From NCBI GenBank assembly GCA_965219085.1, contig OZ244720.1:3232001-3296000 (forward strand): DNA of 64,000 bases. Reading direction: 5' to 3'. Under the pieces are notes generated by a model that saw nothing but the letters and a program-made list of their open reading frames with translations, ran no database searches and had not been told where the DNA came from. Source of the stretch: Dehalococcoidia bacterium. Lineage in GTDB: Bacteria > Chloroflexota > Dehalococcoidia > UBA2979. Shown here in pieces: positions 44,183 to 44,521 of this stretch; position 1 is the first letter of the stretch; each line of letters begins with the position of its first letter. The position numbers and the translations under genes were made by a program.

Positions 44183-44521
44183 CAAGGCGCGGCGCCGAAG
44201 CAACCGACCAGGAGAGCGAGACTGAGACGGACCTGGGAGGAGGCCCAGCAAACCAACCACTGCACGTGATGCCGGGCAACGGGCGACTGCGAGGCGGTAG
44301 CGGTCCAACAAGGACGTTCAAGAGTTGGCAGCGCCCCCTGGAAGCAGGATGTGCCTTCATGCACCGGGCCCGATACGTGGCCCATCAAAGAGTGCGGATA
44401 GAAGCTCGGCACAGGCTCCGTCAGGGGACATCACGAGCGGATCGGCCCCGATGTCGAGGAGCGCCACGCCCCGAGGAGGAGGCCGCCACGTCGGCCTTGC
44501 AGAAAGACCGTCCCTCATAGA
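44183..44521 (+). ncRNA. Predicted bridge/seek RNA of the IS1111-type element
   Basis: Two stem-loops (44281-44336, 44350-44413) with loop segments matching the target (GGCGGTAGC, GTTCAAGAG) and donor (ATAGAAG); exact RNA ends unknown. Confidence 0.8.

What the first reader, a model, noticed from the sequence alone, without database searches (positions are those of the whole stretch)
44281..44413. IS1111-type 3' guide RNA with reversed guide order matching the IS5 LKSYR site
Seen: outer stem GGGCG-A-CTGC / GCAG-CGCCC encloses GGCGGTAGC (44293-44301, complement of target GCTACCGCC), hairpin GTCC/GGAC, then GTTCAAGAG (44316-44324, 8/9 to GCTCAAG[AG]). A second stem TGTGCC/GGCACA encloses GGATAGAAG (44396-44404), matching the donor end ATAGA[AG]. 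The right-donor guide is less clear (UCAU at 44357-44360 or CCATC at 44382-44386). The right guide precedes the left guide, the opposite order from the neighbouring IS110. The apparent 9-nt right-target pairing is long, which could mean higher specificity and would be useful for genome editing.
Basis: partly seen in the sequence, partly recalled or inferred. Interest (0 to 1): 0.78.

Follow-up and report, generated by a model that had tools for sequence, protein, structure and literature searches.

The report
Bridge RNA of an IS1111-type element
This is the guide ("bridge" or "seek") RNA gene of a small mobile DNA element, whose loops spell out the site it inserts into; it is a clear but ordinary new example of a system first described in 2024.

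Summary
Window 42984-44523 is a 1540-bp IS110-family element of the IS1111 type, with a DEDD transposase, 7-bp subterminal inverted repeats and a 341-nt 3' non-coding region. It sits in an IS5-type transposase gene at CTCAAG[AG]|CTACCGCC. Positions 44279-44418 encode a two-loop bridge/seek RNA.

In loop 1, GGCGGUAGC (44293-44301) complements the right flank and UCAAGAG (44318-44324) repeats the left flank. Across 4 guide classes in this genome and 81 in 90 related RNAs, these two segments vary and track the flanks (0 of 5000 permutations each). The stems show compensatory changes (16 of 22 pairs).

In loop 2, AUAGAAG (44398-44404) equals the right IS end in 71 of 72 rows, over four end variants.

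The "reversed" guide order is real, but it is the published trait of IS1111 seekRNAs (Siddiquee 2024). The 8+1-nt right guide is at the top of the family range and is not exceptional. I found no evidence that the RNA is transcribed.

Verdict: a well-supported new member of a known kind, of modest interest.

The parts
42984..44523 (+). Complete IS110-family element of the IS1111 type, 1540 bp. By the convention used here, the right copy of the AG core belongs to the element.
   Evidence: Flanks and empty sites. A contig joint 42981->44522 skips 1540 bp. Five identical copies lie in the genome.
42982..42983 (+). AG core at the left junction. The second copy is at 44522-44523.
   Evidence: The uninterrupted site is GCTCAAG-AG-CTACCGCC. 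The joint has a 2-nt ambiguity. The core in the guides is AG in 83 of 85 classes.
42989..42995 (+). Left subterminal inverted repeat ATGAGGG, 5 nt from the left tip (tip extension ATGGC, 42984-42988).
   Evidence: Read. The inverted repeat was detected independently of the guides in relatives.
43094..44182 (+). DEDD transposase gene, 362 aa.
   Evidence: Pfam PF01548 (E 1e-18) and PF02371 (E 1.8e-19). PDB sequence matches to ISCro4 (9t56) and IS621 (8wt6) transposases, E about 1e-6.
44279..44418 (+). Bridge/seek RNA gene: the target-binding loop module plus the donor-binding loop module.
   Evidence: The only hit of covariance model R1 in the window, 112 bits. Family-wide, 96.5% of cells are paired and 16 of 22 pairs show compensatory change.
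44281..44290 (+). 5' strand of the stem closing the target-binding loop (GGGCG-A-CTGC). It pairs with 44328-44336.
   Evidence: Helix 2: 8 pairs, 6 with changes on both sides, 99.3% paired. For example, C-G, U-A and A-U all occur at one position.
44293..44301 (+). Right-target guide GGCGGUAGC. [quoted passage not shown]
   Evidence: Family test: 5.63 of 7 against 2.90 shuffled. Register offset 2, the commonest in the family (29 of 55).
44303..44315 (+). Distal hairpin between the two target guides (GTCC-AACAA-GGAC).
   Evidence: Helix 3: 3 of 4 pairs show compensatory change. L044 has GCCC/GGGC.
44318..44324 (+). Left-target guide UCAAGAG. It is identical to the top strand of the left flank including the AG core, so it would pair with the bottom strand.
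   Evidence: Family test: 4.68 of 7 against 2.68 shuffled. A contiguous length of 7 is the mode (29 of 60).
44328..44336 (+). 3' strand of the stem closing the target-binding loop (GCAG-CGCCC).
   Evidence: helix 2.
44337..44348 (+). Linker hairpin CCUG-GAAG-CAGG.
   Evidence: Predicted in the single-sequence fold. L044 has CCUG-GAGA-CAGG. It is not conserved in distant relatives.
44350..44355 (+). 5' strand of the stem closing the donor-binding loop (UGUGCC). It pairs with GGCACA at 44408-44413.
   Evidence: 6 bp in this clade and in L044. Family-wide the helix is short: mean longest helix 4.10 against 3.84 shuffled, with 0 of 1000 as high.
44352..44358 (+). Proposed right-donor guide UGCCUUC. 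[quoted passage not shown] It overlaps the closing stem.
   Evidence: Covariation of this segment with left-end positions 2-5 over 42 unique combinations: 3.5 of 4 against 2.93 (sd 0.084), with 0 of 5000 as high. There are exceptions. Moderate support.
44361..44395 (+). Core of the donor-binding loop module: stem GCAC (44361-44364) / GUGC (44392-44395), enclosing the hairpin GGGCC (44366-44370) / GGCCC (44379-44383).
   Evidence: Helices 4 and 5. Helix 4 is nearly invariant. In helix 5, all 5 pairs show compensatory change.
44398..44404 (+). Left-donor guide AUAGAAG. It is identical to the last 7 nt of the right IS end, including the AG core.
   Evidence: It matches in 71 of 72 rows over four end variants: ATGGAAG 54, ATAGAAG 15, ATGGCAG 1, ATGGACG 1. 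Right ends were defined by the inverted repeat, not by the guide.
44480..44502 (+). Conserved hairpin AGGCCG-CCACGU-CGGCCU, followed by the -35-like hexamer TTGCAG (44497-44502) 21 nt from the right tip.
   Evidence: A TTG[AC]N hexamer lies 20-22 nt from the tip in 59 of 64 unique right-end tails. Reading it as half of a circle-junction promoter is an inference.
44512..44518 (+). Right subterminal inverted repeat CCCTCAT, followed by the 5-nt tip AGAAG (44519-44523).
42541..42983 (+). Left part of the interrupted IS5-type (DUF772) transposase gene. It continues at 44524.
   Evidence: Pfam PF05598, E 2.3e-22. The L-K-S-Y-R codons are restored when the element is removed. One search aligns both parts to an uninterrupted copy.

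Best explanation
Window 44279-44418 (+) is the bridge RNA (seekRNA) gene of an IS1111-type member of the IS110 family (42984-44523). It lies in the element's long 3' non-coding region, downstream of the DEDD transposase gene and in the same orientation.

The RNA has two internal-loop modules.

Target-binding loop:
- The 3' side (UCAAGAG) pairs with the bottom strand to the left, including the AG core.
- Together they direct insertion between CTCAAG[AG] and CTACCGCC, inside the L-K-S-Y-R codons of an IS5-type transposase gene.

Donor-binding loop:
[quoted passage not shown] The transposase-RNA complex would then exchange strands at the shared AG, as shown for IS621.

What is shown here: the anatomy, the conservation of the structure, and the covariation of all four guide segments with their DNA partners.

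What is inferred by analogy with IS621 and the ISEc11/ISPa11 seekRNAs: that the RNA is transcribed, that it binds the transposase, and the chemistry of the reaction.
For: 1. Family identity. The ORF carries Pfam PF01548 and PF02371. The element has 7-bp subterminal inverted repeats 5 nt from both tips, a 110-nt left and a 341-nt right non-coding region, and no target duplication beyond a shared AG.

2. Empty sites. Eight uninterrupted IS5-type copies in the same genome carry GCTCAAGAG|CTACCGCC. A public contig skips exactly 1540 bp.

3. Natural reprogramming within one genome. There are 11 copies in 4 guide classes, and the two guide blocks are the main variable blocks in an otherwise conserved region.
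- c7: guides read AG-TGGGTG and GGCAGAG; flanks are GGCAGAG|TGGGTGAG.
- c10: guides read AG-CAGCTCG and CCACCAG; flanks are CCCACCAG|CAGCTCG.
- c11: guides read AG-CAGCCTG and CCGCATAG; flanks are CCGCATAG|CAGCCTG.
For c10 and c11 the right flank was taken after the last tandem right-end copy.

4. Family-wide guide tests. Covariance model R1 found the RNA in 96 hits over 97 sources, always downstream of the transposase gene and in the same orientation. Among 81 guide classes:
- Right guide against its own right flank: 5.63 of 7, shuffled 2.90, n=63, 0 of 5000 permutations as high.
- Left guide against its own left flank: 4.68 of 7, shuffled 2.68, n=60, 0 of 5000 as high.

5. Structure. 96.5% of cells are paired, 16 of 22 pairs show compensatory change, and the covariation score is 0.328 against 0.108 shuffled (0 of 500) and at most 0.067 when the partners are slid. 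RNAalifold on an independent MAFFT alignment predicted 18 pairs, 7 of them compensatory.

6. Strand. There are 69 G:U cells against 26 A:C cells, which favours the transposase-sense strand.

7. Donor loop. The left-donor guide equals the last 7 nt of the right end in 71 of 72 rows over four end variants, including an element with a CG core (L080). The right-donor segment covaries with left-end nt 2-5: 3.5 of 4 against 2.93, 0 of 5000 as high.

8. Published rule. The guide order matches that reported for IS1111 seekRNAs.
Against: - No evidence of transcription. The one metatranscriptome run that shares words with the element has no contig over 44176-44465. This is not evidence of absence.
- No sigma-70-like promoter or intrinsic terminator was found.
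- The single-sequence fold has no thermodynamic signal (z = 0.15).
- No Rfam 15 family matches the region.
- Some copies carry guides that do not fit their flanks. c9 sits in an IS5-type site with c6-type guides; it is a mosaic. L034 is a second case.
- 11 of 63 classes score 4 or less of 7 for the right guide. Some of these are register or tandem-repeat artefacts of my automatic boundary calling.
- The proposed right-donor guide has a mismatch at left-end nt 2 and overlaps the closing stem, and several relatives break the rule (L063, L068, L091).
- The permutation tests ignore phylogeny.
- Alignment A4 was fitted to the model, which inflates the paired percentage.
Confidence: 0.9

Rival explanations
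1. The RNA guides target choice only. The first module (about 44279-44348) is the functional short RNA. The second module is a scaffold or protein-binding region, and the IS ends are recognised by the transposase or through the flanks, not by RNA-donor pairing.
For: Siddiquee 2024 (section 9) found that short 82-96-nt seekRNAs carrying only target matches predominate on IS1111 transposases. The same paper (section 12) stresses the role of the target-like flanks of the donor. In this family the right-donor guide is imperfect and overlaps a stem. The right end varies little (4 variants), so the left-donor match rests on few independent changes.
Against: The last 7 nt of the right end and the 3' side of loop 2 change together in all four variants, including single elements with GGCAG and GGACG tips. 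Left-end nt 4-5 and the 5' side of loop 2 change together on several backgrounds: GG/CC, AG/CU, AA/UU, GA/UC and GC/GC. Durrant 2024 predicts donor-binding nucleotides in IS1111 bridge RNAs (passage).
Confidence: 0.12
2. The matches are chance, or reflect target DNA captured into the element, and no guide RNA is made.
For: No transcript evidence. No thermodynamic signal in the single sequence.
Against: The guides track the flanks in 81 guide classes (0 of 5000 permutations). One guide is a reverse complement and the other a direct copy, split around a hairpin, inside stems with compensatory changes. This is the published architecture.
Confidence: 0.02
3. The conserved structure acts at the DNA level, as a cruciform or protein-binding site, or the RNA is made from the opposite strand.
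For: Covariation alone cannot tell RNA from single-stranded DNA. No RNA reads are available.
Against: G:U cells outnumber A:C cells 69 to 26 on the transposase-sense strand. Read on the opposite strand, the guides would pair with neither DNA strand in the way known for either subgroup. Published IS1111 RNAs map to this strand and co-purify with the transposase.
Confidence: 0.03

Closest known systems
seekRNAs of IS1111-group elements ISEc11, ISPa11, ISKpn4 and ISPst6 (Siddiquee et al. 2024, PMC11187229)
   Same: The non-coding region lies downstream of a DEDD transposase gene. The element has subterminal inverted repeats. [quoted passage not shown] The top-strand match lies 5' of the bottom-strand match. 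Different relatives have different targets. That paper also reports a precedent for targeting another IS's transposase gene: ISEc21, which targets IS3-family genes.
   Different: The sequence and the target differ: here the target is the LKSYR codons of an IS5-type transposase gene. The host lineage differs too: the closest relatives are in Dehalococcoidia/Tepidiformaceae MAGs. This report adds comparative evidence for a second, donor-matching loop. I saw only the abstract and sections 9, 12 and 13 of the paper, not its figures or supplements, so I cannot say whether donor matches were noted there.
IS621 bridge RNA (Durrant et al. 2024, PMC11208160; Hiraizumi et al. 2024; PDB 8wt6)
   Same: One RNA carries a target-binding and a donor-binding internal loop. 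In each loop, one side pairs with the bottom strand on the left and the other with the top strand on the right. A shared dinucleotide core is included in the pairings. The right-donor pairing is irregular. The enzyme is a DEDD recombinase.
   Different: The RNA is encoded at the 3' end (right end), not the 5' end. The order of the guides along the RNA is inverted. The subterminal inverted repeats are longer (7 bp or more). The core is AG, not CT. The transposase matches 8wt6 only weakly (E 9.7e-07, C-terminal domain).
ISPpu9 modular transposition (Pares-Guillen et al. 2025, PMC12288879; abstract only)
   Same: The right-end module, carrying a small-RNA gene, occurs in extra copies next to or apart from the transposase gene.
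   Different: Here the extra modules are tandem partial right ends joined at AG dinucleotides inside the element's own 3' region. I did not test whether they move.

Membership tests
IS110 family | DEDD (RuvC-like) transposase with the DEDD_Tnp_IS110 and Transposase_20 domains | tested here: met
   PF01548 E 1e-18 and PF02371 E 1.8e-19. PDB matches to the IS621 and ISCro4 transposases.
IS110 family | Site-specific insertion without target duplication, at a short core shared by donor and target | tested here: met
   Uninterrupted sites against occupied sites share only AG. The public contig joint has a 2-nt ambiguity.
IS1111 group | Subterminal inverted repeats of 7-17 bp with short terminal extensions | tested here: met
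   ATGAGGG / CCCTCAT, each 5 nt from a tip. Relatives have 7-14 bp.
IS1111 group | Long non-coding region downstream of the transposase gene, with a short left end | tested here: met
   Left 110 nt (42984-43093), right 341 nt (44183-44523).
IS1111 bridge/seek RNA | Structured RNA in the right end whose loop segments match both strands of the target around the insertion point | tested here: met
IS1111 bridge/seek RNA | The top-strand match lies 5' of the bottom-strand match | tested here: met
   44293-44301 complements the top strand. 44318-44324 equals the top strand, so it pairs with the bottom strand.
Bridge RNA (bispecific) | A second loop that pairs with both IS ends across the circle junction | tested here: inconclusive
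   The left-donor guide is met (71 of 72 rows, four variants). The right-donor guide is supported only moderately and has exceptions.
IS1111 bridge/seek RNA | The RNA is transcribed, binds the transposase and is required for transposition | not testable with these tools
   The one RNA run gave no cover of the region. No experiment was possible.
Rfam families | A match to a curated covariance model | tested here: not met
   No Rfam 15 family with E up to 1 on 44183-44523. The only hit in 41000-48000 is Ms_AS-4 at 44994-45075.

The most novel reading that the evidence does not exclude
Because the guides repeat the element's own target and ends, the DNA that encodes the bridge RNA is itself a near-cognate recombination site. 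This leads to two linked proposals.

1. Self-recombination builds right-end arrays. The element recombines with its own guide-coding DNA and builds tandem arrays of right-end/bridge-RNA modules.
- In L044 the repeat joint falls exactly after the AG of its own left-target guide.
- In the c11 copy of this genome there are five right ends in tandem. Two of the joints lie after ATAG inside the DNA coding the left-donor guide.

2. A donor-mimic lock. In this clade the right-donor guide UGCC is held in a stem with GGCA, which mimics the left end. That stem would have to open when the real donor binds.

Both would be unreported consequences or controls of RNA-guided recombination.
Probability: 0.15. 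Interest if true: 0.55.

Novelty: new member of a known kind. Interest (0 to 1): 0.3.

Why it matters
RNA-guided bridge recombinases are being developed as genome-editing tools. Nearly all mechanistic work is on IS621 and its close relatives in the IS110 group.

This family supplies a compact, naturally "reprogrammed" data set for the less studied IS1111 architecture:
- 81 guide classes on one conserved scaffold.
- Readable rules: about 7-8 nt plus the core on the right, 5 nt plus the core on the left, and an AG core with one CG variant.
- Comparative evidence that a donor-binding loop exists in this group.

For genome annotation, it explains why copies of one IS sit in different but specific sites. 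It also shows one IS targeting the transposase gene of another. It is not a new kind of system.

Tried and rejected
- Single-sequence folding of the whole 3' region gave no signal above shuffles (z = 0.15). The structure is visible only by comparison.
- The Rfam scan found no family for the region.
- The promoter/terminator scan found nothing on either strand.
- RNA evidence. The run search gave one metatranscriptome run with a 0.05 share of words. Laid on the window, it covers parts of the transposase gene and 44481-44524 but nothing over 44176-44465. I draw no conclusion about expression from this.
  - CCAUC (44382-44386) was rejected. The sister copies c6 and c10 have CCACC and CCACA there, with the same left end.
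  - UCAU (44357-44360): only U44357 and C44358 fall within the segment proposed here. The LE2-5 covariation covers 44354-44357.
- I first thought the window's right-target guide was in an unusual register, shifted by 1 nt against its sister copies. One search shows that this register is the commonest in the family (29 of 55).
- A positionally conserved closing stem of loop 2 could not be shown across the family. Only a short helix is supported, with weak statistics.
- My first automatic end-finder missed the 7-bp repeats of the window's clade and mis-sliced two loci. I rewrote it.

Rows left out of counts:
- One search was given 97 of the 128 sources I held (the window plus 127 loci). The rest were duplicate copies of the same elements, or loci fetched for other parts of the query.
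- Searches dropped 6 of the 96 rows of A4: partial hits and second hits in tandem arrays.
- Alignment A3 used 23 sequences that I chose from the regex hits.

The supplements and figures of the papers were not seen.

Full report
**What is at the locus**

Its single ORF (43094-44182, 362 aa) carries both Pfam domains of IS110-family DEDD transposases, PF01548 and PF02371. It also matches the solved IS621 and ISCro4 transposases by sequence.

The element interrupts an IS5-type (DUF772) transposase gene. The flanks read GCTCAAGAG|ATGGCATGAGGG... on the left and ...CCCTCATAGAAG|CTACCGCC on the right. The same genome holds 8 uninterrupted copies of the IS5-type gene with GCTCAAGAGCTACCGCC, 6 exact and 2 with one mismatch, plus 1 unrelated near-match. 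The element therefore inserted at a shared AG without duplicating the target. A contig of a public run joins 42981 to 44522, skipping 1540 bp with a 2-nt ambiguity.

The ends carry 7-bp subterminal inverted repeats, ATGAGGG and CCCTCAT, each 5 nt from a tip. The left non-coding part is 110 nt and the right is 341 nt. These are the features of the IS1111 group as described in Durrant 2024 (passages) and Siddiquee 2024 (abstract).

**The observation**

- GGGCG-A-CTGC (44281-44290) pairs with GCAG-CGCCC (44328-44336).
- Inside that stem, GGCGGTAGC (44293-44301) is the reverse complement of core G plus the first 8 right-flank nt.
- GTCC-AACAA-GGAC (44303-44315) is a hairpin.
- TCAAGAG (44318-44324) repeats the last 7 left-flank nt, including AG.
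- Further on, TGTGCC (44350-44355) pairs with GGCACA (44408-44413). Inside that stem, ATAGAAG (44398-44404) repeats the last 7 nt of the element.

**Copies in the same genome**

A DNA search of the whole genome found 5 identical copies and 6 copies at 85-88% identity. All five identical copies have the IS5-type left flank. Four of them (c1-c3, c5) also have the CTACCGCC right flank, while c4's right flank differs. Upstream flank differences show at least two separate insertions.

In the diverged copies the region around the two stems is almost invariant, except for the two proposed guide blocks. Those blocks fit each copy's own flanks.
- c7: the guides read AG-TGGGTG (as reverse complement) and GGCAGAG. 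The flanks are ...GGCAGAG | TGGGTGAG....
- c10: the guides read AG-CAGCTCG and CCACCAG. The flanks are ...CCCACCAG | CAGCTCG....
- c11: the guides read AG-CAGCCTG and CCGCATAG. The flanks are ...CCGCATAG | CAGCCTG....

For c10 and c11 I took the right flank after the last of several tandem right-end copies.

One copy, c9, contradicts the rule. It sits in an IS5-type site but carries c6-type guides. One search shows it is a mosaic. It is identical to c6/c7 from about alignment position 300 to the 3' end, but different, and closest to c11, in its first 100-200 nt. Recombination between copies after insertion is the likely cause, though this is an inference.

**Relatives elsewhere**

- A scan of species-representative genomes gave 27 loci. 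Most are 87-90% identical in protein and lie in Dehalococcoidia/Tepidiformaceae MAGs. One is at 69% (L044) and one at 52% (L046).
- A metagenome scan found 503 relatives among 599 candidate stretches. The best 80 were kept, at 50-59% identity.

I aligned 23 diverse sequences (A3). RNAalifold predicted 18 pairs on this alignment, 7 of them with compensatory changes. A covariance model built from A3 (R1) found the RNA 96 times in 97 sources. Every hit lay downstream of the transposase gene and in the same orientation, and there was exactly one hit in the window, at 44279-44418.

On the resulting alignment (90 distinct rows):
- 96.5% of cells form standard pairs, against 84.7% in shuffles.
- 16 of 22 pairs show changes on both sides.
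- The covariation score is 0.328, against 0.108 in shuffles (0 of 500 as high) and at most 0.067 when the partners are slid by 1-3 columns.

That alignment is fitted to the model, which favours the structure. The independent MAFFT/RNAalifold result points the same way. G:U cells outnumber A:C cells 69 to 26, which favours the transposase-sense strand.

**Guides against DNA, family-wide**

I located the element ends in each locus from the subterminal inverted repeats alone. I then compared one representative of each of 81 guide classes with its flanks (6 of 96 rows were dropped as partial or secondary hits).
- The 5' side of loop 1 is complementary to its own right flank at 5.63 of 7 positions on average. 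Shuffled flanks give 2.90 (sd 0.14; n = 63; 0 of 5000 permutations as high).
- The 3' side is identical to its own left flank at 4.68 of 7 non-core positions. Shuffled flanks give 2.68 (sd 0.13; n = 60; 0 of 5000 as high).
- Eleven of the 63 right-guide comparisons scored 4 or less. Several of these are cases where my automatic boundary fell on a tandem right-end copy (L009, L044) or where the guide has an insertion (L049, L101).

The core dinucleotide in the guides is AG in 83 of 85 classes. L080 has CG in its left-target guide, its left-donor guide, its right tip and its left flank.

Relatives with different targets do not keep the same loops.

**Donor loop**

The 3' side of loop 2 equals the last 7 nt of the right end in 71 of 72 rows. 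The variants are ATGGAAG (54), ATAGAAG (15), ATGGCAG (1) and ATGGACG (1). The one exception is L052.

For the right-donor guide I used the register of loop 1. The nucleotides 4-9 nt upstream of the invariant GCAC stem are complementary to left-end nt 2-5 at 3.5 of 4 positions, against 2.93 in shuffles (sd 0.084; 42 unique combinations; 0 of 5000 as high). Changes at left-end nt 4-5 are matched on several backgrounds: GG/CC, AG/CU, AA/UU, GA/UC, and GC/GC in this element. L063, L068, L091 and a few others break the rule.

In the window this gives UGCCUUC (44352-44358), pairing with core G plus ATGGCA and leaving one U:T mismatch. This segment overlaps the closing stem UGUGCC/GGCACA. That stem is 6 bp in this clade and in L044, but only a short and weakly supported helix family-wide (4.10 against 3.84).

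**Comparison with what is known**

[quoted passage not shown] The 3' side pairs with the top strand on the right (4-7 nt). The core is included in all pairings, and the right-donor pairing is discontinuous (Durrant 2024, passages).

Here the strand and side assignments are the same, but the order along the RNA is inverted. That inversion is stated in the abstract of Siddiquee 2024: "their order in IS1111 and IS110 family IS is reversed". Sections 9 and 12 of that paper repeat it, and it is tabulated in a 2026 review (passage).

Durrant 2024 predicted bridge RNAs in the right end of 93% of IS1111 elements, with 8-14-nt pairings. The guide order is therefore the family norm.

The right-target guide of the window pairs with 8 contiguous flank nt. 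That is the family maximum here, shared by 7 of 61 classes. The 7-nt left guide is the mode. The window's register is the commonest one (29 of 55), and it is one of 11 classes in that register in which core A is left unpaired. Nothing supports unusual specificity.

An IS that targets the transposase gene of another IS also has a published precedent: ISEc21 in IS3-family genes.

**What is missing**

I have no evidence that the RNA is made.
- The only RNA run sharing words with the element has no contig on the RNA gene. This proves nothing either way.
- No promoter-like or terminator-like site was found.
- No Rfam family matches.

A conserved TTG[AC]N hexamer lies 20-22 nt from the right tip in 59 of 64 distinct right ends (TTGCAG, 44497-44502, in the window). 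This fits the circle-junction promoters reported for this family, but it is an inference.

**Verdict**

This is a new, well-documented member of the IS1111-type bridge/seek RNA systems, not a new variant. The added value is threefold: the comparative data set, the support for a donor-binding loop in this group, and a better placement of the right-donor guide.

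Noticed in passing
L010:3033-3767 (own genome, copy c11); also L007:3020-3078, L009:3048-3123 and L044:2869-3099: Tandem partial copies of the right end. Copy c11 has five right ends in a row, with partial or whole bridge-RNA regions between them. c7 and c10 repeat their last 59 and 76 bp. In L044 the 231-bp repeat starts exactly after the AG of its own left-target guide. Every joint I read (c7, c10, L044 and c11's first three) follows an AG in the source sequence. 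Two of c11's joints lie after ATAG inside the DNA coding the left-donor guide, which resembles c11's own target. This suggests recombination of the element with its own guide-coding DNA. A comparable case is the modular right-end copies of ISPpu9 (PMC12288879, abstract only).
   Followed up: partly
L005:3048-3959 (own genome, copy c5; the same in c4, L004): A 912-bp insertion lies in the right end of two copies, 16 nt from the tip and on the opposite strand. It has no family-assignable ORF. It matches Rfam group II intron models: RF02003 at 95 bits and RF00029 at 44.8 bits. This looks like an ORF-less group II intron.
   Followed up: partly
L008:1525-3042 (own genome, copy c9): A mosaic copy. 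The first 100-200 nt are closest to c11. The rest is identical to c6/c7, including the guides, which do not fit its IS5-type insertion site. This is probably recombination between copies after insertion. L034 shows a similar misfit between guides and flanks.
   Followed up: partly
window 44676-45899 (-), ends near 44665 and 46150: A neighbouring IS110-group element (407-aa transposase) lies in the same IS5-type gene further downstream. Both junctions share GACCCCT. Window 44511-46016 is 99.4% identical to the DNA next to another IS5-type copy whose LKSYR site is uninterrupted, so the IS5-plus-IS110 composite is itself repeated. By eye, a left-flank-like CCCGACC lies 5' of a right-flank-complementary GGACCGCU in its upstream region, which is the IS110 order. 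I did not test this.
   Followed up: partly
window 44994-45075 (+): An Rfam hit to the actinobacterial sRNA family Ms_AS-4 (63.9 bits, above its gathering score) lies antisense inside the IS110 transposase gene. It probably reflects conserved transposase coding sequence and not an sRNA of this organism.
   Followed up: no
window 44480-44502: A conserved hairpin (AGGCCG-CCACGT-CGGCCT, with a CCACGT loop kept in several distant relatives) is followed by a -35-like TTGCAG/TTGACA hexamer. The hexamer lies 20-22 nt from the right tip in 59 of 64 distinct right ends. It may be half of a circle-junction promoter.
   Followed up: partly
L046:2586-2840: A distant relative (52% protein identity, Acidobacteriota MAG) carries two tandem target-binding modules. 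Their guides are nearly the same (GATGTCAAG and GACGTCAAG), and both precede a single donor-binding module.
   Followed up: no
L026, L028-L033, near position 1390: In several copies from two different MAGs the left tip reads CTGGCATGAGGG instead of ATGG.... In all of them it is preceded by the same sequence, GTTAGCCGGGCGCT, so something else abuts or replaces the first two nt of the left end.
   Followed up: no
L080:1405-1583 and its ends: The only relative with a CG core. The left-target guide, the left-donor guide, the right tip (GGACG) and the left flank (..CCG) all carry CG instead of AG.
   Followed up: partly
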